Notes: a model not told the origin generated them from the letters alone. DNA of 60,977 nt from Bdellovibrionota bacterium (GCA_041736915.1 JBGSST010000158.1:1-60977), one strand, 5' to 3'. Positions 22,696 to 32,151 are shown, numbered from the stretch's first letter. Numbers and translations: made by a program.

Positions 22696-22799
22696 AGCTG
22701 CTCTTTCGTATCGGCTTGATTGAAACTAAGGGTAAGAGCTCGTCGGCTCGTGAAAACCCGCAAAAAAACCGAAACGTTAGGGATCGGGTGCGATCCCTT

Positions 22800-23780
22800 A
22801 TGCCGTTTATGAAGCGACAAGTTGCCTTAGGGTTGTTGGCCATACTGGCCTGCGCCGAGCTGTTTGCCGCCAAAGTGGTCTTCGATAAGGACTGCCTGCC
22901 CGAGGTATTGGCGCTGATTCGGTCTGCGAACAAGGAGCTGATCATCAGCGTGTTCGACATCAACGAGCCGCAGATCGTCGACGCTCTGATGCAGGCCCAT
23001 TTCCGCGGCGTTCGCGTGCGCATTCTCACCGATCGCCGGCAGGCCATGGGAGAGCACTCCCGGGTGCCCGACTTACTGCTGATGGGGCTCGAGGTGCGGC
23101 TGAACTCTCGCCGGCGCTTGCACCACAACAAGTTTGCCGTGGCCGATGGCGTGCGTAGCGTGAGCGGCTCGTTCAACTGGACCAACGGCGCGGCCCGCAA
23201 TAACTCCGAAGACCTCACGGTTTTGGAAACGGGGTTGCTCCGCGGCAGTGAGAAGGAATCGATCGGCAACTTCCAGAACAAGTTCTTGGAAGACTGGGTC
23301 AAGAACACACGCTCTAAGTCGGATGGCTATTTCACGAAGCTCTTCAAAGAGAAGGGCAACGCCGTTTTCGAACGGTGGCGGCCCTGGGTGAAGCAGGTTC
23401 TCGAGGGGGCCACACCGGCCAATCCCATGGAGGATGGCCGTTTGCGCGAGGCGATCGATCTGGCCGACGTATATTACGAAACTCAGCCCGAGCTTTTAGG
23501 ACTGGTGGCCCGGCACGCGACCGATTCCGGAAACAAAGCGCTGCGTAGCCGCATGGCCGCTATCGAGTTTCTGGGTGACGTGGAAACGCGGGACCCGGCT
23601 CACCACGCTCTAATTCAGGTGGCCGAGCATGACAGCCGCGAAGAGGTGCGCACGGCGGCAATAATCGCGCGCATGAAGCTGGGCGGAGTTTTAGAGGGCG
23701 ACGAAAAATTCGAAGGGGCTCGCGGTTCGCCGCGCAGAATGGGCGTTTACTGCCGGTCGCTATTGTCACGCCTGCGCTAA
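22800..23780 (+). CDS. Secreted single-HKD PLD-family domain fused to HEAT-like repeat region
   Basis: ATG at 22800 gives a signal peptide (MPFMKRQVALGLLAILACAELFA). HKD motif HHNKFAVADGVRSVSGSFNWTNGA. The C-terminal third has HEAT/PBS-lyase-like helices (LRSRMAAIEFLGDV...EVRTAAIIARMKLG). Confidence 0.7.
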   Translation: MPFMKRQVALGLLAILACAELFAAKVVFDKDCLPEVLALIRSANKELIISVFDINEPQIVDALMQAHFRGVRVRILTDRRQAMGEHSRVPDLLLMGLEVRLNSRRRLHHNKFAVADGVRSVSGSFNWTNGAARNNSEDLTVLETGLLRGSEKESIGNFQNKFLEDWVKNTRSKSDGYFTKLFKEKGNAVFERWRPWVKQVLEGATPANPMEDGRLREAIDLADVYYETQPELLGLVARHATDSGNKALRSRMAAIEFLGDVETRDPAHHALIQVAEHDSREEVRTAAIIARMKLGGVLEGDEKFEGARGSPRRMGVYCRSLLSRLR

Positions 23781-24478: not shown

Positions 24479-25306
24479 CTATTTACCGGGGTCTTTACCT
24501 TCAGTCACCCCGGGGAAAAATTTTCTGGCCTCCACGCAGGCCTCGATAGTCTTTTCGTTAGTTACCTTTTGAACCTCAGCCTTGAGTTTGTCGGCATCCC
24601 AGCCAGGGTTCTCGGCGCGCAGCTTAATGGCGTAGTTGGAATGGTAGACGTCGCGCATGTTGTCTTTCCAGATTCCCGTGGGCGAAAAAGTTTCTTTGGG
24701 GCCGTACTTTCCGTCCCAGAAGATAATCTGCGTGAAGCGGGTTTTCTTGGGGGCGACCGCCTCCACCACGATGAGGCCATCGACGCTTTTCAGCAGGTCG
24801 ATGTGTTTTTTCATCTGGTACCGGTAGGTTTTTTTGTCGGGCGAGTAGGACTTGTTTAGGTACGTCGTTTCGTAGCGCAGGTCGGGTACGAAGGGCACGG
24901 GGATGGGCCGGTGCCAAAAGACCGAAAAGCCGGTCGGCGTGGTCTCGGTTCTCTTTATCTCTTCAAACCCGGCGAACAGCTCTCCGTACTTTTCCACGTT
25001 ATCGAGAATGGCGATCACCTTGTCGGGTGAGTCGTTGATCGTTTGCGTTACCGACGCCCCCATGAAAAACGGCCGTTCGGGGTGGCGATGGCAGGTAAGG
25101 CGAAACACCCCCTCGGTCGCCTCGTCATACGAGAACCAGGCCGGCGGCCAATGCTGCTCGAAGCTCTCCAAAAGCCTCGTGTAGAGGGTCTCGGGTCCGC
25201 CGTTGGCGGGGGGGAGGGCGGGGGCCGAGCCGGGAAAAAGAAACGCGGTCGCCAAAGCCAGCCCGCGAACGGAGGAATGCCAGTTTAGGTGTGAAGCGTA
25301 AGCCAT
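24479..25306 (-). CDS. Secreted hypothetical protein (possibly START/SRPBCC-like lipid-binding fold)
   Basis: 275-aa ORF with a signal-like N-terminus. The fold guess rests only on size and pattern. Confidence 0.4.
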   Translation of the reverse strand: MAYASHLNWHSSVRGLALATAFLFPGSAPALPPANGGPETLYTRLLESFEQHWPPAWFSYDEATEGVFRLTCHRHPERPFFMGASVTQTINDSPDKVIAILDNVEKYGELFAGFEEIKRTETTPTGFSVFWHRPIPVPFVPDLRYETTYLNKSYSPDKKTYRYQMKKHIDLLKSVDGLIVVEAVAPKKTRFTQIIFWDGKYGPKETFSPTGIWKDNMRDVYHSNYAIKLRAENPGWDADKLKAEVQKVTNEKTIEACVEARKFFPGVTEGKDPGK

Positions 25307-25427
25307 CTTCCCTCATCTTCCTCTCCACCCCAGTCCGGTTCAAGACTGATTCAAATTATGCCGATAACGCATTGTGTTTCTGAGCGGGCCATGAACACCC
25401 GCCTTATGAGCTCTTTAGGAGATCAGC

Positions 25428-27131
25428 ATGAGCGAAATTGGAAAAGTATTGCGGATGAAGCGTTTCAAGATGACCGACCCCGAAGGGAAGGTGAAGTTTC
25501 TTTTTGAGACTGCGCTTGGCAACAAGTACACGTTACGCCTCACCGACGTTTCCATGACGGGCCTTGGGGGCATTCTTCAATCCTCGGCTCTTGCGGCAAA
25601 CGAAAACTTTGAAATGGGAATGCTCATTCCATCTTCGAAGATCACCTGCGAGACCAACGAGTTTACGCTGGGCCGTCTGGTGCTGCGGCGGTTCAGCCAG
25701 AACGGCAGCGAAGTCTCCGTGGCCTTCTCGACCATCGACTCTCGCATCCCCGTAGATGGCGTCTTAAGCCGGTATCTAGAAGTGGATGTCGATTCGAAGA
25801 AGTCCGCTTACGACTTCGAACTGAATCCTGAGCGCTTCAGCGTTCTCAGCTTTCGTGAAGTGAACCAGACGAACGTAGACCTCTTTCAGAAGACGGAGCA
25901 ATTCAAAATCTTTTTCGAAGAATGGCAGAAGTCAAACAAGTACCAGTACTACACTGTGCGTCTCCCTTCGAAAGGTGAGCGCGTAAAGCTAAAACAGCGC
26001 CGCAAGGGCGATCGCAACGATTATCTGGTGGCTAGCTCCAATGACTATCTGGGCTTAGCCTCTCATCCTCAGGTAATCGAGGCGGCGAAAAAAGCTATCG
26101 ACATTTATGGGTTCGGTTCGACTGGTTCCCCGGTCACGACGGGACTCACGGCGGCCCATGAAGAGCTTCAAAGCACGCTGGCGTCACTTCTCAAGAAAGA
26201 CGACGTAATGCTTTTCAATTCCGGCTACACGGCCAACATCGGGGTGATCAATGCGCTGACCAATGCGCAGGATCTCGTCGTAGCCGACGTACTGGCGCAT
26301 GCTTCCATTCAAGACGCTATGGGCTTGTCGAACGCGACCAAGCGCTTTTACAAGCATAACGACCTCGCTCATCTGCAAAAAATCATGGATGAGAATCGGG
26401 CCAGCCACTACGGTTCACTAGTAGTTACGGATGGCATTTTCTCGATGGACGGCGACGTAGCTCCGGTGGACGCCCTTTCTAAGGTTTGCCGCCAGAATCG
26501 TTCACGGCTCATGGTGGATGAAGCTCATTCATTTGGAGTGATTGGACCTACTGGGCTGGGTGCGTGGGAAAAGTTTCCGGAAGCGGAAGTCGACATCGTC
26601 ATGGGAACATTTTCGAAGATCTGCGGCGGCATCGGCGGGTTTGTTGCGGCTAAGCAGGACGTGATCGACTGGGTTCGTCATTACTCACGCGCCTATATCT
26701 TCACCGTAGCGGTGCCTCCTTCGACGGCAGCCGCCGCGCTAGCCGCCATCAAGTTGTTCCAGGCTGAACCGGAACGCGTCGCCCAGCTCCATACCAACAT
26801 CAACCACTTCGTTAAGGGACTTCGCTACCTTGGTTGCACGATCCCGGCGAACCACGAAAGTCCCGTAATTCCCGTCGTCATCGGCGACGAAAAGAAGCTT
26901 GGGCTCATGAACGAAATCTTTCGTGATGAGGGTATCTACGTGGTGCCCATCGTACATCCCGCGGTCAGTCGCAAACAGTGCCGCTTCCGTTTTACCGTAA
27001 TGGCGACACATACGACATCTGATCTCGACTACATCCTGAATGTGCTGGAAAAAGCGATGCTGAAGGCGAACTTCACTTTCGCAAAAGATGCCAAAAACGC
27101 TCCTGGGCAGGAGAAGTCAGTGGCTGCCTAA
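25428..27131 (+). CDS. PilZ-like N-terminal domain fused to a PLP-dependent alpha-oxoamine synthase (AONS/KBL/serine-palmitoyltransferase family)
   Basis: The C-terminal ~370 aa show NDYLGLASHP, DEAHSFGVIG and the PLP-Lys motif GTFSKICGG. The N-terminal ~150-200 aa extension carries a DxSxxG PilZ motif (DVSMTG), preceded by LRMKRF. Confidence 0.8.
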   Translation: MSEIGKVLRMKRFKMTDPEGKVKFLFETALGNKYTLRLTDVSMTGLGGILQSSALAANENFEMGMLIPSSKITCETNEFTLGRLVLRRFSQNGSEVSVAFSTIDSRIPVDGVLSRYLEVDVDSKKSAYDFELNPERFSVLSFREVNQTNVDLFQKTEQFKIFFEEWQKSNKYQYYTVRLPSKGERVKLKQRRKGDRNDYLVASSNDYLGLASHPQVIEAAKKAIDIYGFGSTGSPVTTGLTAAHEELQSTLASLLKKDDVMLFNSGYTANIGVINALTNAQDLVVADVLAHASIQDAMGLSNATKRFYKHNDLAHLQKIMDENRASHYGSLVVTDGIFSMDGDVAPVDALSKVCRQNRSRLMVDEAHSFGVIGPTGLGAWEKFPEAEVDIVMGTFSKICGGIGGFVAAKQDVIDWVRHYSRAYIFTVAVPPSTAAAALAAIKLFQAEPERVAQLHTNINHFVKGLRYLGCTIPANHESPVIPVVIGDEKKLGLMNEIFRDEGIYVVPIVHPAVSRKQCRFRFTVMATHTTSDLDYILNVLEKAMLKANFTFAKDAKNAPGQEKSVAA

Positions 27132-29023
27132 TGACTTTTTCAACCTTCTCCATAGCTGTTCTCATGGCATTGTCTCGACTCATGGGGGTCGATCCATTGC
27201 CAGCAAAGAATCCATCGGGATGGACCGTCGTCCAGGATTGGACGGCGCAGGAGAGCGGTCACGTTCTACGTGCGCGATCGTCAAAAGTTGTTGAACAGTG
27301 CCAAGCCAACCCTAATCTAGTCGTCCGTTTTCCCGTCATCGTTCATTCGGCCCATGAAATCTACATGGACGGGCAGAAGATTCTTACCTTTGGCGACAAG
27401 TCGTTCCGTACGGTCCGGTCGTTTTACGGCTATCCGGAGATAGCATGCCAGGAATTGGTCGCCGCCAAGGAAATGGAGTGGGTGGCTCACTCCTATAGCC
27501 GCTACTTCGCGCGAATTCACCACTACCCGGAGGTGAGAGAAAAGCTGCAGACGGGCATCCTCATCACCGAGACACTCAATGCCATAGCCGCGGGGGCTCT
27601 GCTGATCATTGCGATCTTTACCGTCGCGATCTTCCGCGGAAAAGTAGAGCAGAAGCTGTGGGTTTCGTTAGGGCTGGCTAGTCTAGGGTTCTGCGTCTAT
27701 TTCACCAACACGGTTCCCTTCCTTTTTGGATTCTCCCACAGCATGCTGGCGAGCCATAAGCTGGCCGACCTAGGTTTATGGGCCGGCACCGCTTTCTACT
27801 TTTACGCATTATTGGTTTATGGGGTCTGCAATAAGTTGGTTTACCAGGTGTACTGCGGACTACTCTTTCTGGCCTGCGTGATCATCAGCTTTGGCGCCGA
27901 CGGCGACGTTGTTCAGTTTGGGACTACACTTCCTTTTTTAGGAACACCCGTGTTGCTCATCTCATGCGGTTTGCATGAGTTTAGAAGAATGCGCGCTGGC
28001 GCAGACAGAAAGAAGGCCGGTTTTGCCATTCTCAGCCTGCTGTTTTTCTTCTTAGTTTCGGTCAACGATATTCTGTCAGTAGTTGGTTTAGCCGATGGGT
28101 ATATGTTTCTTTCTGTCGGATTCATCGGGGGAATGCTGTTTTTCGCGCTCTCGATCAATGAGAATATCAGCGTGGTTTACCAGGAGCGCGATTACCTGAA
28201 TTCGAATCTGGAAAACGAGGTCGCCCGAAAAACGGAAGAGCTTCAGGGAAAAACCGAAGCTCTGGAACTGGCGATGCGTGACCTAAAGGCGACTCAAGGC
28301 GAACTGGTTCAATCCGCCAAGTTAGCTTCGCTAGGCACACTGTCTGCGGGTATTGCCCACGAGATCAATAACTCTTTGAACTTCGTCTACGGGGCTTTGC
28401 GCCCTCTAGAGAACCTATTCGAAAGAAATTCCGATATTCCGTCGGACCAGAAGGAAAAGGCCAAAAAGTTATTCGGGGTAATGGGCGATGGTTTGCGCCT
28501 AACCTTCGAGATCATTAAGAGCCTGCGTAACTTTACCGGATTGAACCAGGCGAAGATGAACGATATCGATCTCAAACAGGTGATCGAAACGGTCCTTACC
28601 ATCCTGCGAAATCGCACCAAGAACTCGGTTAAGGTCCACGTCGACATGCCGGGCGACGTACACGTTTACGGAAGCGTAGTCGGGCTCAATCAGGTTTTCA
28701 TGAACCTGGTAGGGAATGCCATCGACGCTATGCCCGATGGGGGAAACCTTTGGATTAGCTGCACATCGGATGAAAGCCAGGTGGTCGTCAAACTAAAGGA
28801 TAGCGGCCAAGGGATTCCGAAGGACGTACAGGTTCGCATGTTCGAACCATTCTTCACCACTAAAGAAGTTGGTAAGGGCACGGGGCTTGGTTTGCACATC
28901 GTTAGGCAAGAGATTGAAAAACACCGCGGCAACATTCGCTGCGAGTCCGAGCCCGGTCAGGGAACAACGTTCATCATTACTTTCCCTCTTTCGGAAGAAC
29001 AGTTTCTCAAGGAGGCCGCATGA
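27131..29023 (+). CDS. Sensor histidine kinase with 7TMR-DISM-type extracellular and 7-TM input
   Basis: Signal peptide, a ~130-aa extracytoplasmic domain, about 7 TM helices and a coiled coil. H-box AHEINNSL, N-box NLVGNAIDA, G-boxes DSGQGIP and GTGLGL. The start overlaps the upstream stop (TAATG). Confidence 0.85.
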   Translation: MTFSTFSIAVLMALSRLMGVDPLPAKNPSGWTVVQDWTAQESGHVLRARSSKVVEQCQANPNLVVRFPVIVHSAHEIYMDGQKILTFGDKSFRTVRSFYGYPEIACQELVAAKEMEWVAHSYSRYFARIHHYPEVREKLQTGILITETLNAIAAGALLIIAIFTVAIFRGKVEQKLWVSLGLASLGFCVYFTNTVPFLFGFSHSMLASHKLADLGLWAGTAFYFYALLVYGVCNKLVYQVYCGLLFLACVIISFGADGDVVQFGTTLPFLGTPVLLISCGLHEFRRMRAGADRKKAGFAILSLLFFFLVSVNDILSVVGLADGYMFLSVGFIGGMLFFALSINENISVVYQERDYLNSNLENEVARKTEELQGKTEALELAMRDLKATQGELVQSAKLASLGTLSAGIAHEINNSLNFVYGALRPLENLFERNSDIPSDQKEKAKKLFGVMGDGLRLTFEIIKSLRNFTGLNQAKMNDIDLKQVIETVLTILRNRTKNSVKVHVDMPGDVHVYGSVVGLNQVFMNLVGNAIDAMPDGGNLWISCTSDESQVVVKLKDSGQGIPKDVQVRMFEPFFTTKEVGKGTGLGLHIVRQEIEKHRGNIRCESEPGQGTTFIITFPLSEEQFLKEAA

Positions 29024-30228
29024 AGCCGGTCTTATTTTTTGTGGATGACGAGCCTCATAATCTCACGGTTTTCGAAGCGGCGATGCCTTCGGAATGGGAC
29101 GTAAAGACGTTCGATGATCCGTTGAAGGCCCTCGAAGCGCTCGAACGTTCGGTTCCTTGCGTGATTGTGTCAGATCAAAGAATGCCCGGTATCACGGGCG
29201 TCCGTTTCCTCGAACTGGCGAGAAAACTTCATCCGAATGCGATTCGAATCATCGTCACCGGTTACTCCGAGGAGGATTTGGTTGTCGAGTCGGTCCGAAA
29301 GGCGCAGATCTTCGATTACATCAAAAAGCCGTGGGAGCCCGACGAACTGCTGGCGAGTCTTACGCGGGCAATGGAATTCTACCGCGCCAATGAGGAAAGC
29401 CGCCGGCTCACTGAGGAAATTAAAGCTCGCAATCTCGAGCTGGAAGCTACGACTAAGGCATTGGAAGAAGCCAAAACTCGCGAAGAAAAGTTTCGTAAGG
29501 AGCTGGAGTGCTGGGTTCCGCCGTTCGTTCTGCGGTACTTGGAAAACGGGCAGGAACGGTTGCCGATTAAACGCGACATCGTTGGTATCGCATTCGACAT
29601 CATTGCAAGCTCCGGAATTCACAACAAGGAAGTCTCGGGACGGCCTCTGCGCAGCCTCGTCATTCAAGCTTTTTCCGAAAGCTTGATTCGGCACGGCGGT
29701 TGGCGTGAGTCGCATGCCGGTGATTCGGCTTATGGCCATTTTGGTCTCATGGAGACGGCGAACAACCCTTACGAAGCGGCCTTCGCGGCGGCCCGCGAGT
29801 TTCGCGTAGCGCTAAAGAGCATTACGGACGTGCACGGCATTGAGATCGAATGCGGCGTTGCGCTTCACGTGGCGCGCGGTTGTCAGGTGGATATCCATCA
29901 AGTGCAGTTGCAGACTGCTGCCGGGTCGGTAACGCAAAAATCGTTCGATACCTCTTCAATCGAAATCGATCTGCTTCATCGTATGGAGAAGCTAGTTCAT
30001 CAGCTGCCCGGCACGAACATCGTGATGTCGGGAGACTTCATTAGGTCACTCCGAAATCCGCCCGATACGGCGAAGCCGCTCGGCGACTTCAAGTTCAAGG
30101 GGCAGGACAAGCCGGTGGAGCTGCACGTGTTTCCGTCCAACCGAGTGAAGCCGGAAGACCTGGATAAGGTTCGTGCAGCCCCCGAATCAGTTCCCCAGAA
30201 CGTGGTTTCCATTTCGAAGGTCGCGTAG
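29020..30228 (+). CDS. Response regulator: receiver domain plus class III nucleotidyl cyclase homology domain
   Basis: REC motifs (FFVDDEP, VSDQRMPG, KPW), a coiled coil, then a CHD-like region (GIAFDIIASS, GDSAYGHFG, KFKGQDKPVELHVF). ATGA overlap with the kinase gene. Confidence 0.75.
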   Translation: MKPVLFFVDDEPHNLTVFEAAMPSEWDVKTFDDPLKALEALERSVPCVIVSDQRMPGITGVRFLELARKLHPNAIRIIVTGYSEEDLVVESVRKAQIFDYIKKPWEPDELLASLTRAMEFYRANEESRRLTEEIKARNLELEATTKALEEAKTREEKFRKELECWVPPFVLRYLENGQERLPIKRDIVGIAFDIIASSGIHNKEVSGRPLRSLVIQAFSESLIRHGGWRESHAGDSAYGHFGLMETANNPYEAAFAAAREFRVALKSITDVHGIEIECGVALHVARGCQVDIHQVQLQTAAGSVTQKSFDTSSIEIDLLHRMEKLVHQLPGTNIVMSGDFIRSLRNPPDTAKPLGDFKFKGQDKPVELHVFPSNRVKPEDLDKVRAAPESVPQNVVSISKVA

Positions 30229-30333: not shown

Positions 30334-30410
30334 GGGTGCCTAGCTCAGTTGGTTAGAGCGCCGCCTTCACACGGCGGAGGTCACAGGTTCGACCCCTGTG
30401 GCACCCACCA
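30334..30410 (+). tRNA. tRNA-Val (anticodon CAC), CCA encoded
   Basis: A perfect cloverleaf was read by hand: acceptor GGGTGCC/GGCACCC, D-arm GCTC-AGTTGGTTA-GAGC, anticodon arm CCGCC-TTCACAC-GGCGG, variable AGGTC, T-arm ACAGG-TTCGACC-CCTGT, discriminator A, then CCA. Confidence 0.95.
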
Positions 30411-32151
30411 TTTTTAGGCAGGTACTGGAAACGTCCTCCACCCTGCAATCAGCCGAAAAGGACGAGCCATCCCGCAAAATGAAATCCAGCCGCCGATTCC
30501 CTTCGGCATCCTCATCACCCACAACAACCGCTTCAAATAACCGTGCATAGACGCTCCTGAGAGCCACAGGGTCGTGTGCAGCAAGTTTCCTTTGTGCTTC
30601 CTTAGCCGCATCACCATAAGAGGCGATATTGCGCGCTGAGTCGTGGATGGCGGTAATCTTCTCTTCCAGAGCCTCCCGCTTTATTTTGAGCTTTCCAATT
30701 TCCGAGTTAATCGCAGCCATTTTTGCGCGGTATTCCTGCTTAAAAGCATCCGCTTCGGCGCGGTCGGTCCCTTCCAGCAAGAAATCCAATCTCATATCCA
30801 ATTTTTCCCTAGATTTTTTGAGTCCGACGATCTGGCCATCAAAATGATCCAGTTGCTCCGTGCAGGCAGCTAGAGCCTCATCATTTTTAAGGATGCGAGC
30901 CCTGATCGCCTCCTGCATCTCTTTTGAATTCGCGCTGATCTGGTTGACGGTTTCCTGGGTCTTTTCTTCGATGATCTCAGCGGGGATTCTGATTTTGTGA
31001 CCTTTGTTCCAGTAATAAAGATGCTTTAGTTGGCTCGTGCTTGACCATGCTCCGGTGCCCGCAAATGTCGAACCATCTTTGAATTTGAGCACACCTGACA
31101 GCGGATAAATTCTACGGGTGGCTTTATCGACTGTTTTATTACCGGCAACGAGAGTGACGGTATCTTGCACCTTTTCCCAAAGTTCCGAATCAATCGCCTG
31201 ACCGTGGGGCAGCTCGATTTCCTGATAGCGGTCATAGGGCATTAGCTTGTCTTGGTTTTTCTCTTTATTCTCGCGATTCAAAATCCATTTGCCCATGTAG
31301 CGGCTGTTGGTCAAAAGTCCGCGCAAGATTCCGATGGTAAATGGCTCCCCGCTCTTGTTGCACACGCCGCTTTTTTCGCACCTCTCCAAAAGGCGCTCAT
31401 AAGAACGGCACGCCAAAAACTCATTCATGATCCAGACGACTTGCTTCATTTCCTGATCATTGATCGTGTAAAGCCCGACTTTGGGTTCACCATTCACTAA
31501 AAGCTGATCAAGTCCAAGAAACGTGCGCGAGGTATTGAACTTCCCCGAATGAATCATCGCGGAGAAGTTGTTTTCTTTGATCCGCCTTGAGGTTTGGTTG
31601 GATTCGTATTCGGCAAAGGCCGCCATGATGTCGAGCTGGAAAATCTGGGATGGATCATTCGGATTAAACGGGAAGCTGCGAATACAAATGGCGCAATCTT
31701 TCTCAATGCAAAGTCGAAAGAAGCGTTTCCAAATATCCGTCTCTCGTGCGATGCGGGCGAGTTCTTTGAAGATGACGAAGCGGTATTTTCCAGACTGGAT
31801 ATTGCTTTGCAGCCTAATGAACTCTGGTCGCTTGTCGTGACGGCCCGTAATCCCTGGTTCGATATAAAACTTAGTGATCTTGTAGTTCACCTTATCAGCG
31901 TTCGAGCGCGTGATGGCCTCGGAAATAGAGATGTAGATTTGTTGCTCAAGCGAGCCCTTTTCAACGGAAACTTGCTGATCGGTAGAAAGCCTAAGATACG
32001 CGGCTCCGTTGATAGTGTCCCAGCTTGGATCAACTGGTTGCCATGTCTCGATGTACTGTTGGGCCAGCGTCTTGCAGTCTTCAACGATACGGGCAACAAG
32101 TCCCTTGAACTCATCACGGGTCATCTTAGGTTTGATCGCCAATGCCGACAT
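30367..32151 (-). CDS. Large serine recombinase (integrase)
   Basis: 594 aa. N-terminal resolvase-type catalytic motif AAYLRLSTDQQ, a recombinase/zinc-ribbon-like middle and a long coiled-coil region. The last 14 codons plus the stop are encoded antisense to the tRNA-Val 3' half. Confidence 0.85.
   Translation of the reverse strand: MSALAIKPKMTRDEFKGLVARIVEDCKTLAQQYIETWQPVDPSWDTINGAAYLRLSTDQQVSVEKGSLEQQIYISISEAITRSNADKVNYKITKFYIEPGITGRHDKRPEFIRLQSNIQSGKYRFVIFKELARIARETDIWKRFFRLCIEKDCAICIRSFPFNPNDPSQIFQLDIMAAFAEYESNQTSRRIKENNFSAMIHSGKFNTSRTFLGLDQLLVNGEPKVGLYTINDQEMKQVVWIMNEFLACRSYERLLERCEKSGVCNKSGEPFTIGILRGLLTNSRYMGKWILNRENKEKNQDKLMPYDRYQEIELPHGQAIDSELWEKVQDTVTLVAGNKTVDKATRRIYPLSGVLKFKDGSTFAGTGAWSSTSQLKHLYYWNKGHKIRIPAEIIEEKTQETVNQISANSKEMQEAIRARILKNDEALAACTEQLDHFDGQIVGLKKSREKLDMRLDFLLEGTDRAEADAFKQEYRAKMAAINSEIGKLKIKREALEEKITAIHDSARNIASYGDAAKEAQRKLAAHDPVALRSVYARLFEAVVVGDEDAEGNRRLDFILRDGSSFSADCRVEDVSSTCLKMVGATGVEPVTSAV

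What the first reader, a model, noticed from the sequence alone, without database searches (positions are those of the whole stretch)
25428..30228. PilZ-like/alpha-oxoamine synthase fusion in one operon with a 7TMR-DISM kinase and a receiver-cyclase
The 567-aa first gene carries a complete PLP-dependent alpha-oxoamine synthase core (DEAHSFG, GTFSK). This is the family of AONS, KBL and serine palmitoyltransferase.

- The core sits behind a ~150-200-aa N-terminal extension with a clear DxSxxG PilZ motif (DVSMTG). The upstream Arg motif is only RxxR-like (RMKRF).
- The gene is translationally coupled (TAATG, then ATGA) to a histidine kinase with a 7TMR-DISM-type sensor, and to a response regulator whose output is a class III cyclase-homology domain.
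- In that cyclase domain the usual Asn of the (V/I)N-x-A-x-R-x-E motif appears to read Asp (IDLLHRME), so its activity or specificity is uncertain.

A nucleotide-second-messenger receptor domain fused directly to the committed enzyme of an amino-ketone or sphingoid-base-type pathway, next to a nucleotide cyclase, suggests post-translational signal control of lipid or amino-ketone synthesis. I do not know of a described case.
Basis: partly seen in the sequence, partly recalled or inferred. Interest (0 to 1): 0.65.

Follow-up and report, generated by a model that had tools for sequence, protein, structure and literature searches.

The report
PilZ-gated oxoamine synthase signalling cassette
An enzyme that makes lipid-like amino-ketones carries a built-in sensor domain of the type that binds the bacterial messenger c-di-GMP, and in relatives of predatory Bdellovibrio it always travels with its own membrane sensor kinase and a cyclase-type response regulator; I found no description of this three-gene module.

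Summary
Three translationally coupled genes (25428-30228, + strand) encode:
- a 567-aa fusion of a PilZ-like beta-barrel to a complete PLP alpha-oxoamine synthase (AOS);
- a 7-TM histidine kinase;
- a receiver-cyclase response regulator.

Pfam sees neither the PilZ nor the cyclase domain. AlphaFold models built on family alignments do:
- The N-terminus matches c-di-GMP-bound PilZ domains (YcgR, MrkH, Alg44, BcsA).
- The regulator's C-terminus matches class III cyclases (OaPAC, CyaC, CyaB).

Both domains are non-canonical:
- The PilZ arm reads RxxR-h-x-h instead of RxxxR-h-x-h, while [D/N]hSxxG is intact.
- The cyclase keeps both metal Asp, the base-pair Asp and the Arg. It has Ser for Lys/Glu and an invariant Asp for the transition-state Asn.

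The fusion is not a gene-calling artefact. At least 119 full-length homologues (47-65% identity) exist in Bdellovibrionota/Oligoflexia. In all 11 other loci examined the order is AOS-kinase-regulator with unrelated flanks.

The AOS is nearest to Sphingobacterium serine palmitoyltransferase but passes no NCBIfam equivalog cutoff.

Most likely this is a second-messenger-gated amino-ketone/sphingoid-base synthase hard-wired to a dedicated two-component system. It resembles Cqs/Lqs in logic but not in ancestry. Ligand, product and wiring are inferred, not shown. No description was found in the literature searched.

The parts
25418..25422 (+). Shine-Dalgarno AGGAG, 5 nt upstream of the ATG of gene 1
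25428..27131 (+). Gene 1: PilZ-like/alpha-oxoamine synthase fusion, 567 aa
   Evidence: ORF. At least 119 full-length homologues at 47-65% identity.
25452..25781 (+). PilZ-like beta-barrel, residues 9-118. It includes the N-terminal arm R9-x-K-R12-F-x-h (25452-25466) and the [D/N]hSxxG motif DVSMTG (25545-25562).
   Evidence: AlphaFold model with block-mean pLDDT 83-97 over residues 11-120. Foldseek top hits are PilZ domains with c-di-GMP, E about 1e-4. R9, R12 and G45 invariant, S42 46/47, N/D40. 8/47 members give weak Pfam PilZ hits.
25782..25877 (+). Conserved linker, residues 119-150 (E131, L132, F137, F142 nearly invariant). Low model confidence when folded in isolation.
25878..27068 (+). 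PLP-dependent alpha-oxoamine synthase domain, residues 151-547. H291 at 26298-26300, D364/H367 within 26517-26531, Schiff-base K397 at 26616-26618.
   Evidence: Pfam Aminotran_1_2. End-to-end alignment to Sphingobacterium multivorum SPT 8guh/3a2b at 239 bits. Catalytic residues conserved.
27131..29023 (+). Gene 2: sensor histidine kinase, 630 aa. Signal/anchor residues 1-20, periplasmic domain 21-148 (27191-27574), seven TM spans 149-342 (27575-28156), H-box AHEINN with H410 (28355-28372), HATPase_c 517-621 (28679-28993).
29020..30228 (+). Gene 3: response regulator, 402 aa. REC residues 6-114 (29035-29361; D52). Coiled-coil and cyclase-transducer-like segment with ELECWVPPF (29500-29526). Class III cyclase-homology domain about 183-375 (29566-30144) with D193, S231, D235, D310, D317 and R321.
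   Evidence: Pfam REC. AlphaFold pLDDT 87. Foldseek hits OaPAC, CyaC, CyaB and Cya2 at E 1e-11 to 1e-10. Conservation. Register against Cya2.

Best explanation
The three genes are one conserved signalling-metabolic module of Bdellovibrionota.

**Gene 1.** It encodes a catalytically intact PLP-dependent alpha-oxoamine synthase of the SPT/KBL/BioF type. The enzyme condenses an amino acid with an acyl thioester to give an alpha-amino-ketone, probably long-chain and sphingoid-base- or CAI-1-like. Its first ~120 residues form a divergent PilZ barrel. This most likely acts as an allosteric receptor for a cyclic (di)nucleotide, with c-di-GMP as the default candidate. Enzyme output would then be set post-translationally by messenger level, as in the PilZ-gated synthases BcsA and Alg44.

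**Genes 2 and 3.** They are a dedicated two-component pair. A 7-TM kinase with a small periplasmic domain phosphorylates a REC/coiled-coil/class III cyclase-homology regulator. Phosphorylation would switch the regulator's dimeric cyclase-like domain.

**Coupling.** The obligate linkage implies that enzyme and two-component system act in one pathway. Either the kinase monitors the envelope or the enzyme's lipid-like product, or the regulator's nucleotide output feeds back on the PilZ-gated enzyme, directly or through the cell's c-di-GMP network.

**Shown:** gene structure, folds, motif and catalytic-residue conservation, and synteny.
**Inferred:** ligand, product, sign of regulation, and which component is upstream.
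For: **Fusion and cassette conservation**
- The fusion is conserved as one ORF in at least 119 homologues.
- The PilZ-like family was found essentially only as this N-terminal extension: 40 representatives among 1.84 billion proteins. Those checked are about 550-570 aa fusions or truncated copies.
- The cassette AOS-HK-RR is present in all 11 other loci examined, with unrelated flanks. In the contig-end loci L007 and L010 the regulator is missing or cut off. This holds whether the search was anchored on the AOS or on the RR, and includes cultured Oligoflexus tunisiensis and Bdellovibrio sp. qaytius.
- About 30 further contigs are shared between the AOS and RR hit lists, judged by matching contig lengths.
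- The genes are translationally coupled.

**PilZ-like domain**
- The fold is PilZ.
- The invariant residues are the ligand-contact ones: R9, R12, S42, G45 and N/D40. They follow the h-x-h and [D/N]hSxxG patterns defined by Galperin and Chou (bioRxiv 10.1101/814665).
- hhalign puts R12 on the last Arg of MrkH's RxxxR and DVSMTG on DISDGG.

**AOS domain**
- The catalytic His, Asp, His and Lys are conserved.

**Response regulator**
- The cyclase fold is confident.
- Both metal Asp and the Arg are retained, along with an intact 'ELECWVPPF' transducer-like helix. Mean column identity is 60% and 31 columns are invariant. This argues for a constrained functional site.
Against: - No binding or activity data exist.
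- The first Arg of RxxxR is hydrophobic (I/M/L) in all 47 aligned members. From my own knowledge, mutating that Arg abolishes c-di-GMP binding in canonical PilZ proteins.
- Pfam PilZ and Guanylate_cyc models fail on the window's proteins.
- The cyclase lacks the Lys/Glu specificity residue (S231) and the transition-state Asn (D317). It may be inactive or may do something else.
- The AOS substrate class is unresolved: bioF 374 bits, SPT 328 and KBL 319, all below cutoff.
- No pathway genes (reductase, ceramide synthase, ACP) are linked to the cassette.
Confidence: 0.45

Rival explanations
1. **Autoinducer-type circuit, analogous to Vibrio CqsA/CqsS and Legionella LqsA/LqsS/LqsR.** The AOS is a signal synthase making a diffusible or membrane-partitioning amino- or hydroxy-ketone. 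The 7-TM kinase is its cognate receptor, and the regulator is the output. The PilZ domain merely lets c-di-GMP gate signal production.
For: - The logic matches Lqs: an AOS-family synthase genetically tied to a polytopic membrane kinase, plus a regulator with a nucleotide-cyclase-like (not DNA-binding) output domain. The Lqs system is reviewed in PMC3376566. LqsR's output is described as a degenerate GGDEF-like fold in PMC10653808.
- The module is self-contained, with no linked pathway genes.
- Synthase-kinase-regulator in one operon is the classical autoinducing layout (my own knowledge of agr and com).
Against: - The parts are not orthologous. The NCBIfam alpha-hydroxyketone synthase model scores 194 bits against a cutoff of 428.
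- CqsA structures score 102 bits against 239 for SPT.
- The sensor has 7 TM spans plus a periplasmic domain. CqsS has 6 TM spans (abstract of PMC4821796); that it lacks a periplasmic domain is from my own knowledge.
- The regulator's output matches class III cyclases, and no LqsR or GGDEF structure is among the top 50 hits.
Confidence: 0.25
2. **Private-messenger loop.** The divergent cyclase-homology domain makes a nucleotide, possibly non-canonical, that is the specific ligand of the equally divergent PilZ-like domain. Kinase input would then control the enzyme directly and post-translationally.
For: - Both domains are so divergent that Pfam misses them.
- Both families appear confined to this cassette: 40 representatives for PilZ-like and 142 hits for the cyclase-homology domain.
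- Both deviate at ligand-contact positions (RxxR; Ser-Asp and Asp-Arg pairs), and those deviations are invariant across the family.
Against: - From my own knowledge, PilZ domains are known to bind only c-di-GMP, and class III cyclases make cyclic mononucleotides.
- Co-occurrence is equally explained by any shared function.
- Distant relatives of the PilZ-like domain (P0274, P0277) keep the canonical RxxxR. This points to descent from an ordinary c-di-GMP binder.
Confidence: 0.1
3. **Ligand-free adaptor and pseudo-cyclase.** The PilZ-like barrel has lost nucleotide binding and serves as a docking or localisation domain, for the regulator, the kinase or the membrane. The cyclase-homology domain is a non-catalytic binding module.
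For: - The first Arg of RxxxR is absent in all members.
- Some PilZ-related domains lack binding and act through protein contacts (bioRxiv 10.1101/814665).
- The cyclase lacks two of six canonical residues.
- Family-specific invariant charged residues outside the PilZ motifs (K71, E78, R83, R87, D104) could form an interface.
Against: - The residues that stay invariant are the nucleotide-contact ones (R9, R12, S42, G45, N/D40).
- The cyclase-homology domain keeps both metal-binding Asp and its transducer helix under strong constraint.
Confidence: 0.15
4. **Ordinary housekeeping BioF/KBL with an irrelevant N-terminal extension.** Adjacency to the two-component system would be coincidental.
For: - The best NCBIfam score is bioF, at 374 bits.
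- JGI annotates homologues as 8-amino-7-oxononanoate synthase or glycine C-acetyltransferase.
Against: - All equivalog cutoffs are missed.
- No biotin or threonine-catabolism genes are adjacent.
- The cassette is invariant in the 11 other loci with different flanks.
- The extension is conserved with a specific motif pattern.
Confidence: 0.05

Closest known systems
PilZ-gated synthases (cellulose synthase BcsA; alginate co-polymerase Alg44)
   Same: A PilZ beta-barrel is fused in cis to a biosynthetic enzyme. The [D/N]hSxxG motif and an Arg-bearing N-terminal arm are present. The model superposes on the BcsA and Alg44 PilZ domains.
   Different: - The domain is N-terminal rather than C-terminal.
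- The enzyme is a soluble-type PLP alpha-oxoamine synthase, not a glycosyltransferase or secretion component.
- The arm reads RxxR instead of RxxxR.
- The domain falls below the Pfam PilZ threshold.
Cqs/Lqs alpha-hydroxyketone quorum sensing (CqsA-CqsS; LqsA-LqsS-LqsR)
   Same: An AOS-family enzyme is genetically tied to a polytopic membrane histidine kinase. In Lqs there is also a response regulator whose output domain has a nucleotide-cyclase-like fold rather than a DNA-binding domain.
   Different: - The AOS is nearer to SPT, KBL and BioF than to CqsA.
- The sensor has 7 TM spans plus a periplasmic domain.
- The output is a class III cyclase fold rather than a degenerate GGDEF.
- The synthase carries a PilZ-like domain.
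- The distribution is Bdellovibrionota, not the gamma- and beta-proteobacteria in which lqs/cqs clusters have been described.
Bacterial serine palmitoyltransferase (Sphingobacterium multivorum SPT, PDB 3a2b/8guh)
   Same: It is the best solved-structure match and the only one aligning from the N-terminal helix to the C-terminus (residues 152-545 against 6-391). The catalytic His, Asp, His and Lys are shared.
   Different: - The window's protein scores 328 bits against a cutoff of 640 on the NCBIfam SPT model.
- It has the family-specific loop GSTGSPVTTG where SPT has GCAGSRFLNG.
- It carries a PilZ extension.
- No linked sphingolipid genes were found.
Receiver-class III cyclase response regulators and other regulated class III cyclases (CyaC of Spirulina, CyaB of P. 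aeruginosa, OaPAC)
   Same: The layout is REC, then a coiled-coil/transducer helix, then a cyclase-homology domain. Both metal Asp, the Asp of the base-recognition pair and the transition-state Arg are present.
   Different: - Ser stands at the Lys/Glu position.
- Asp stands at the Asn position, invariant in the family.
- There are many family-specific invariant His residues.
- Pfam Guanylate_cyc does not recognise the domain.
7TMR-DISM receptors (e.g. RetS, LadS, NicD)
   Same: An N-terminal extracytoplasmic domain is followed by seven TM helices and a cytoplasmic signalling module. The Pfam 7TMR-DISM_7TM model aligns over positions 4-201 of 205.
   Different: The score is below the gathering threshold, and no DISMED1 or DISMED2 domain was detected.

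Membership tests
PilZ domain (PF07238) | Six-stranded beta-barrel fold of PilZ | tested here: met
   The AlphaFold model on a 47-sequence alignment has block-mean pLDDT 83-97 for residues 11-120. The top 16 Foldseek PDB hits are all PilZ domains: YcgR, MrkH, Alg44, BcsA, PP4397 and PlzA (E 1e-4 to 1e-3; TM up to 0.56 on the shorter chain).
PilZ domain (PF07238) | RxxxR motif in the N-terminal arm | tested here: not met
   The family motif is h-R9-x-[KR]-R12-[FY]-x-[VIL]. The position of the first Arg is I, M or L in 43/47 members and never Arg. R12 aligns with the last Arg of MrkH's RxxxR.
PilZ domain (PF07238) | [D/N]hSxxG motif | tested here: met
   N (33) or D (14) at position 40, C/V/A/L/I at 41, S42 in 46/47, G45 in 47/47.
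PilZ domain (PF07238) | Pfam HMM above gathering score | tested here: not met
   There is no hit for the window's protein. 8 of 47 members give weak hits, best E 0.031.
PilZ domain (PF07238) | Binds c-di-GMP | not testable with these tools
   Needs DRaCALA, ITC or MST.
Alpha-oxoamine synthase family (PLP fold type I, CoA-dependent acyltransferases) | Fold type I domain with the Schiff-base Lys, the stacking His and the Asp-x-x-His PLP contacts | tested here: met
   Aminotran_1_2 at E 7e-50. K397, H291, D364 and H367 are conserved in >=97% of 119 homologues. Strong matches to SPT, KBL, BioF and ALAS structures.
8-amino-7-oxononanoate synthase BioF (TIGR00858) | Score above the equivalog cutoff | tested here: not met
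   373.9 bits against a cutoff of 426.45.
Serine palmitoyltransferase (NF047600, NF047599, NF047603) | Score above the equivalog cutoff | tested here: not met
   328, 305 and 236 bits against cutoffs of 640, 500 and 670. S. multivorum SPT is still the best solved-structure match, so an SPT-like activity is not excluded.
Glycine C-acetyltransferase KBL (NF005394, TIGR01822) | Score above the equivalog cutoff | tested here: not met
   319 and 271 bits against cutoffs of 460 and 493.
CqsA/LqsA alpha-hydroxyketone autoinducer synthase (NF005526) | Score above the equivalog cutoff; nearest relatives are CqsA/LqsA | tested here: not met
   193.9 bits against a cutoff of 428. CqsA structures score 102 bits against 239 for SPT.
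7TMR-DISM receptor | Seven TM helices matching PF07695, preceded by an extracytoplasmic DISMED domain | tested here: inconclusive
   Hydropathy gives seven spans and a periplasmic domain of about 125 aa. PF07695 scores 17-19 bits against a cutoff of 29 in the window and in one (L003) of the four homologues scanned. No DISMED hit was found.
Histidine kinase (HisKA/HATPase_c) | H-box and GHKL ATPase domain | tested here: met
   HATPase_c at E 9e-29. HisKA is weak (E 0.012), with the H-box AHEINN at 409-414.
Class III nucleotidyl cyclase (PF00211) | Cyclase-homology fold | tested here: met
   AlphaFold pLDDT 87. Foldseek hits include OaPAC at 8e-12, then CyaC, CyaB and Cya2, with TM about 0.7 on the target.
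Class III nucleotidyl cyclase (PF00211) | Pfam HMM hit | tested here: not met
   No Guanylate_cyc hit in the window's protein or in any of 36 homologues, even at E <= 10.
Class III nucleotidyl cyclase (PF00211) | Six canonical catalytic residues: two metal Asp, the Lys/Glu + Asp/Cys base pair, and the transition-state Asn and Arg | tested here: not met
   D193 and D235 are invariant, D310 is invariant and R321 is nearly invariant. The Lys/Glu position is S231 (register against Cya2). The Asn position is D317, invariant.
Class III nucleotidyl cyclase (PF00211) | Converts an NTP to a cyclic nucleotide | not testable with these tools
   Needs an enzyme assay with LC-MS.
Response regulator receiver (PF00072) | REC domain with the acidic pocket, phospho-acceptor Asp and conserved Lys | tested here: met
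   Response_reg at E 1.6e-17. D9/D10, D52 and K103 are present.

The most novel reading that the evidence does not exclude
The cassette is a closed signalling loop that needs no transcription. The fused enzyme makes a lipid-like amino-ketone. The 7-TM kinase senses it. The phosphorylated regulator's atypical cyclase domain makes a nucleotide, possibly a non-canonical one. That nucleotide is the private ligand of the equally atypical PilZ-like domain, which sets the enzyme's activity. A variant reading is that the RxxR PilZ-like domain is a protein receptor for 3',3'-cGAMP. Bdellovibrio makes that messenger, and the paper describing its synthase mentions no protein receptor (PMC9140294).
Probability: 0.1. 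Interest if true: 0.9.

Novelty: new variant of a known kind. Interest (0 to 1): 0.66.

Why it matters
PilZ domains are known to gate polysaccharide synthases, flagellar brakes and transcription factors. A PilZ-type receptor built into a PLP alpha-oxoamine synthase would extend second-messenger control to amino-ketone, sphingoid-base or autoinducer chemistry.

The invariant linkage to a 7-TM kinase and a receiver-cyclase gives a compact three-protein system. In it, one can test how a membrane signal, a cyclic nucleotide and a lipid-like metabolite are wired together.

The system occurs in a phylum (Bdellovibrionota) whose predatory life cycle is already known to be driven by c-di-GMP and cGAMP. 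The two divergent domains also mark blind spots of current Pfam models for PilZ and class III cyclases. The cassette is present in cultured strains (Oligoflexus tunisiensis, Bdellovibrio sp. qaytius), so the question can be addressed experimentally.

Tried and rejected
**Searches that gave nothing or little**
- Pfam and NCBIfam scans gave no PilZ or cyclase hit for the window's proteins. Only weak PilZ hits appeared in 8/47 homologues, and no cyclase hit in 36 homologues.
- Profile searches of PDB sequences with the PilZ-like profile and the cyclase profile gave nothing significant. Only fold comparison worked.
- hhalign of the PilZ-like profile against single YcgR and MrkH PilZ sequences gave low probabilities (36% and 5%). 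I used these only for motif register.
With a narrower alignment it returned only 5 loci.
- The search with the kinase's sensor region was swamped by transmembrane words.
- The 2016 Bdellovibrio c-di-GMP capture-compound paper (Rotem et al.) is not held. I could not check whether a homologue was pulled down.

**Ideas considered and set aside**
- Membership in Cqs/Lqs: rejected on AOS scores, sensor topology and output fold. The analogy is kept.
- The upstream SRPBCC/START-like and pirin genes as part of the module: rejected, because they are shared only with the closest relative L008.
- Glu two residues before Gly in strand beta-4 of the cyclase domain as a further defect: rejected, because the active guanylate cyclase Cya2 has Glu there too.
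- A sigma-28 promoter: only a weak lead.

**Not done**
- I did not build an AOS phylogeny. Reference sequences were available only through PDB alignments, and HMM and phmmer scores place the clade about equidistant from SPT, KBL and BioF.

Full report
**1. The observation**

ORF listing confirms three co-directional genes:
- 25428..27131, 567 aa
- 27131..29023, 630 aa
- 29020..30228, 402 aa

The junctions read ...GCCTAATGAC... and ...GCATGAAG.... AGGAG lies 5 nt before the first ATG, and AAGGAGG precedes the third gene. A tRNA-Val at 30334..30410 closes the unit.

**2. Gene 1, the enzyme part**

- Pfam finds only Aminotran_1_2, at residues 203-539 (E 7e-50).
- NCBIfam places the protein among the CoA-dependent alpha-oxoamine synthases, but below every equivalog cutoff:

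| Model | Score (bits) | Cutoff (bits) |
|---|---|---|
| bioF | 374 | 426 |
| SPT (Bacteroidota type) | 328 | 640 |
| KBL | 319 | 460 |
| alpha-hydroxyketone autoinducer synthase | 194 | 428 |

- Against PDB sequences the ranking is as follows:

| Structure | Score (bits) |
|---|---|
| Sphingobacterium multivorum SPT | 239 |
| Thermus AOS | 222 |
| KBL | about 220 |
| BioF | 206 |
| ALAS | 200 |
| Sphingomonas SPT | 193 |
| CqsA | 102 |

- S. multivorum SPT is the only structure aligned from the N-terminal helix to the end (residues 152-545 against 6-391).
- H291, D364, H367, K397 and the FSMDGD segment are conserved in >=97% of 119 homologues. The enzyme looks active.
- A family-specific loop GSTGSPVTTG replaces the GxxGSR(F/M)LNG loop of SPT.
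- I therefore file it as an unassigned AOS clade, SPT-like in overall architecture. Substrates are unknown.

**3. Gene 1, the N-terminal extension**

- A homology search returned at least 119 proteins of 538-588 aa with 47-65% identity over 94-100% of the query. They come from Bdellovibrionota, Bdellovibrio, Pseudobdellovibrionaceae, Oligoflexales and Oligoflexus. The fusion is a conserved single ORF, not a gene-calling artefact.
- In an alignment of 47 diverse N-termini only seven columns are invariant: R9, R12, G45, K71, G82, D104 and P108. S42 is 46/47. Position 40 is N (33) or D (14). Position 41 is hydrophobic. Position 13 is F or Y, and position 15 is V, I or L.
- This matches the [D/N]hSxxG motif and the '...R-h-x-h' pattern that Galperin and Chou define for PilZ (bioRxiv 10.1101/814665).
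- The first Arg of RxxxR, however, is I, M or L in 43/47 members and never Arg. The arm reads h-R-x-[KR]-R.
- An AlphaFold model built on that alignment is confident for residues 11-120 (block-mean pLDDT 83-97) and all-beta.
- Its best PDB matches are c-di-GMP-binding PilZ domains: YcgR (E 1e-4), MrkH, Alg44, BcsA, PP4397, PlzA, MotI and VCA0042.
- Sequence methods barely see this:
  - There is no Pfam hit for the window's protein.
  - 8/47 members give weak PilZ hits.
  - There are no PDB sequence hits.
  - hhalign probabilities are low, though the MrkH alignment puts R12 on the last Arg of RxxxR and DVSMTG on DISDGG.
- A profile search of 1.84 billion representative proteins found only 40 relatives. 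Those checked are about 550-570 aa fusions or truncated copies of them.
- Two short distant relatives keep a canonical RxxxR-h-x-h: RGSSRFTI and RKSSRLAI.
- The domain is thus a divergent PilZ derivative that was found essentially only on this enzyme.
- Residues 119-150 form a conserved linker (E131, L132, F137, F142) that leads into the AOS N-terminal helix.

**4. Gene 2**

- It has HATPase_c (E 9e-29), a weak HisKA hit, and the H-box AHEINN with H410.
- Hydropathy gives an N-terminal signal/anchor, a periplasmic domain of about 125 aa, and seven spans between residues 149 and 342.
- Pfam 7TMR-DISM_7TM aligns over nearly its whole length, but at 17-19 bits against a cutoff of 29. This holds in the window and in one of the four homologues scanned.
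- '7TMR-DISM-type' is a fair description of the topology. Family membership is not proven.

**5. Gene 3**

- The REC domain (residues 6-114) has its acidic pocket, D52 and K103.
- The remainder has no Pfam hit, either here or in 36 homologues. JGI does label some homologues 'class 3 adenylate cyclase'.
- An AlphaFold model of residues 155-402 (pLDDT 87) matches class III cyclases: OaPAC at 8e-12, then CyaC, CyaB, Cya2, bPAC, RhGC and mammalian AC/GC, with TM about 0.7 on the target.
- Motif register, supported by the marginal HMM alignment to Cya2, gives these assignments:

| Canonical position | Residue here | Conservation in the family |
|---|---|---|
| Metal Asp 1 | D193 | invariant |
| Metal Asp 2 | D235 | invariant |
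| Lys/Glu specificity | S231 | nearly invariant, flanked by invariant R229 and E230 |
| Partner of the base pair | D310 | invariant |
| Transition-state Asn | D317 | invariant |
| Transition-state Arg | R321 | nearly invariant |

- The segment ELECWVPPF before strand beta-1 resembles the cyclase-transducer helix of regulated class III cyclases. This comparison rests on my own knowledge of that element.
- With 60% mean column identity and 31 invariant columns, among them six His (H201, H240, H283, H293, H320, H327), the domain is under strong constraint. Its chemistry is not that of a textbook adenylate or guanylate cyclase.

**6. Linkage**

- Look-ups anchored on AOS homologues and on regulator homologues, plus tblastn over all fetched loci, show AOS (555-570 aa), kinase (607-654 aa) and regulator (400-458 aa) in that order in every locus examined with enough sequence. 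In the contig-end loci L007 and L010 the regulator is missing or cut off.
- The loci include Bdellovibrio sp. qaytius (CP025734) and the type strain of Oligoflexus tunisiensis.
- In the most divergent locus (L009, 43% identity) the regulator is adjacent but inverted.
- Flanking genes differ between loci. Only the closest relative (L008) shares the upstream pirin and SRPBCC genes.
- About 30 further contig lengths are shared between the AOS and regulator hit lists.
- The module is therefore self-contained. No reductase, ceramide synthase, ACP or biotin gene travels with it.

**7. Mechanism**

My best-supported reading (confidence 0.45) is a second-messenger-gated alpha-oxoamine synthase hard-wired to its own two-component system.
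- **Shown:** folds, motifs, catalytic residues and synteny.
- **Inferred:**
  - The PilZ-like barrel binds a cyclic (di)nucleotide, with c-di-GMP the default.
  - Binding changes enzyme activity through the linker and the N-terminal helix. In AOS dimers that helix helps form the partner's active site; this is established structural knowledge of the family, not tested here.
  - The kinase and regulator act in the same pathway as the enzyme.

How they connect is open. The options, with my confidence in each, are:
1. **Cqs/Lqs logic (0.25).** The kinase senses the enzyme's product (PMC3376566; PMC10653808). This gives the same circuit plan from non-orthologous parts.
2. **Private loop (0.10).** The regulator's nucleotide is the ligand of the PilZ-like domain.
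3. **Adaptor and pseudo-cyclase (0.15).** The PilZ-like domain and the cyclase domain have both become non-catalytic binding modules.
4. **Coincidental housekeeping enzyme (0.05).**

An indirect route is also conceivable, because Bdellovibrio has a cAMP-activated c-di-GMP phosphodiesterase (abstract of PMC6717892).

**8. Comparison with known systems and novelty**

- PilZ fusions listed in the reference survey involve BcsA, Alg44/HlyD, REC, GGDEF, EAL, HD-GYP, MCP and CheC. The word 'aminotransferase' does not occur in that paper.
- No paper in the library links PilZ with any AOS-family enzyme: the only listed paper containing both a 'PilZ' match and an AOS term is a sphingolipid physiology review.
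- The cassette is therefore a new variant built from known kinds of parts: a PilZ-gated enzyme, an AOS, a 7-TM kinase and a REC-cyclase.
- Both signalling domains are divergent enough to escape Pfam.
- It is not a member of Cqs/Lqs, BioF, KBL or the curated SPT families by the tests run.

**9. Limits**

- All functional statements are in silico.
- I built no rooted AOS phylogeny.
- I could not read the Bdellovibrio c-di-GMP pull-down study.

Noticed in passing
window 30334-32151 and onward to 60977: tRNA-Val (30334-30410, +) lies directly after the regulator gene. A 594-aa large serine recombinase (30367-32151, -) has a 3' end that overlaps the tRNA. G+C falls from about 58% to about 50% from roughly 30 kb to the window end. 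This looks like an integrated mobile element of more than 30 kb. No second copy of the tRNA 3' end is in the window, so the far end lies outside it.
   Followed up: partly
L008:7612-8661 and L001:6179-7117: In the closest relative (L008) a tyrosine integrase sits downstream of the cassette, where the window has the serine recombinase. L001 and L012 have integrases a few kb upstream. The neighbourhood of the cassette seems to be an integration hotspot.
   Followed up: no
L003:5936-7777: A 613-aa subtilisin-type (S8) peptidase with a C-terminal canonical PilZ domain (PF07238) lies directly upstream of the cassette in one metagenomic relative. This is another unusual enzyme-PilZ fusion in the same lineage.
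   Followed up: no
window 24479-25306 (-) and 22716-23780 (+): Divergently transcribed from the operon is a 275-aa protein with a hydrophobic N-terminus that looks like a signal peptide and a weak SRPBCC/START-like (Polyketide_cyc2) match. Further upstream are a pirin and a PLD-like protein with HEAT repeats. The SRPBCC and pirin genes are shared only with the closest relative L008, so they are probably not part of the module.
   Followed up: partly
window 25360-25367: An exact sigma-28 (FliA) -10 consensus, GCCGATAA, lies 60 nt upstream of the start of gene 1. It is also present in L008, and as GCCGATAG in L001, but absent in the other loci. There are 5 copies in the window against 1.8 expected. 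This is a weak hint of flagellar or attack-phase regulation.
   Followed up: partly
P0241 (2344 aa): A very long protein matches columns 63-96 of the PilZ-like profile 32 times (E 3e-48). It is presumably a repetitive beta-hairpin protein unrelated in function. Unexplained.
   Followed up: no
P0274 and P0277: Two short, probably truncated, distant relatives of the PilZ-like domain carry the canonical RxxxR-h-x-h arm (RGSSRFTI, RKSSRLAI) and NYSxxG. This suggests the AOS-fused clade descends from an ordinary c-di-GMP-binding PilZ and later shortened the arm by one residue.
   Followed up: partly
window 29566-30144 (cyclase-homology domain of the regulator): Six His residues (H201, H240, H283, H293, H320, H327) are invariant across 36 homologues. 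The pocket is acidic (D193, D235, D310, D317, E230, E323). This is not typical of adenylate or guanylate cyclases and hints at altered metal or ligand chemistry.
   Followed up: no
L011:14293-15371: In Oligoflexus tunisiensis a TPR protein with a canonical Guanylate_cyc domain (PF00211) lies about 6 kb downstream of the cassette. The lineage therefore also has ordinary class III cyclases that Pfam recognises.
   Followed up: no
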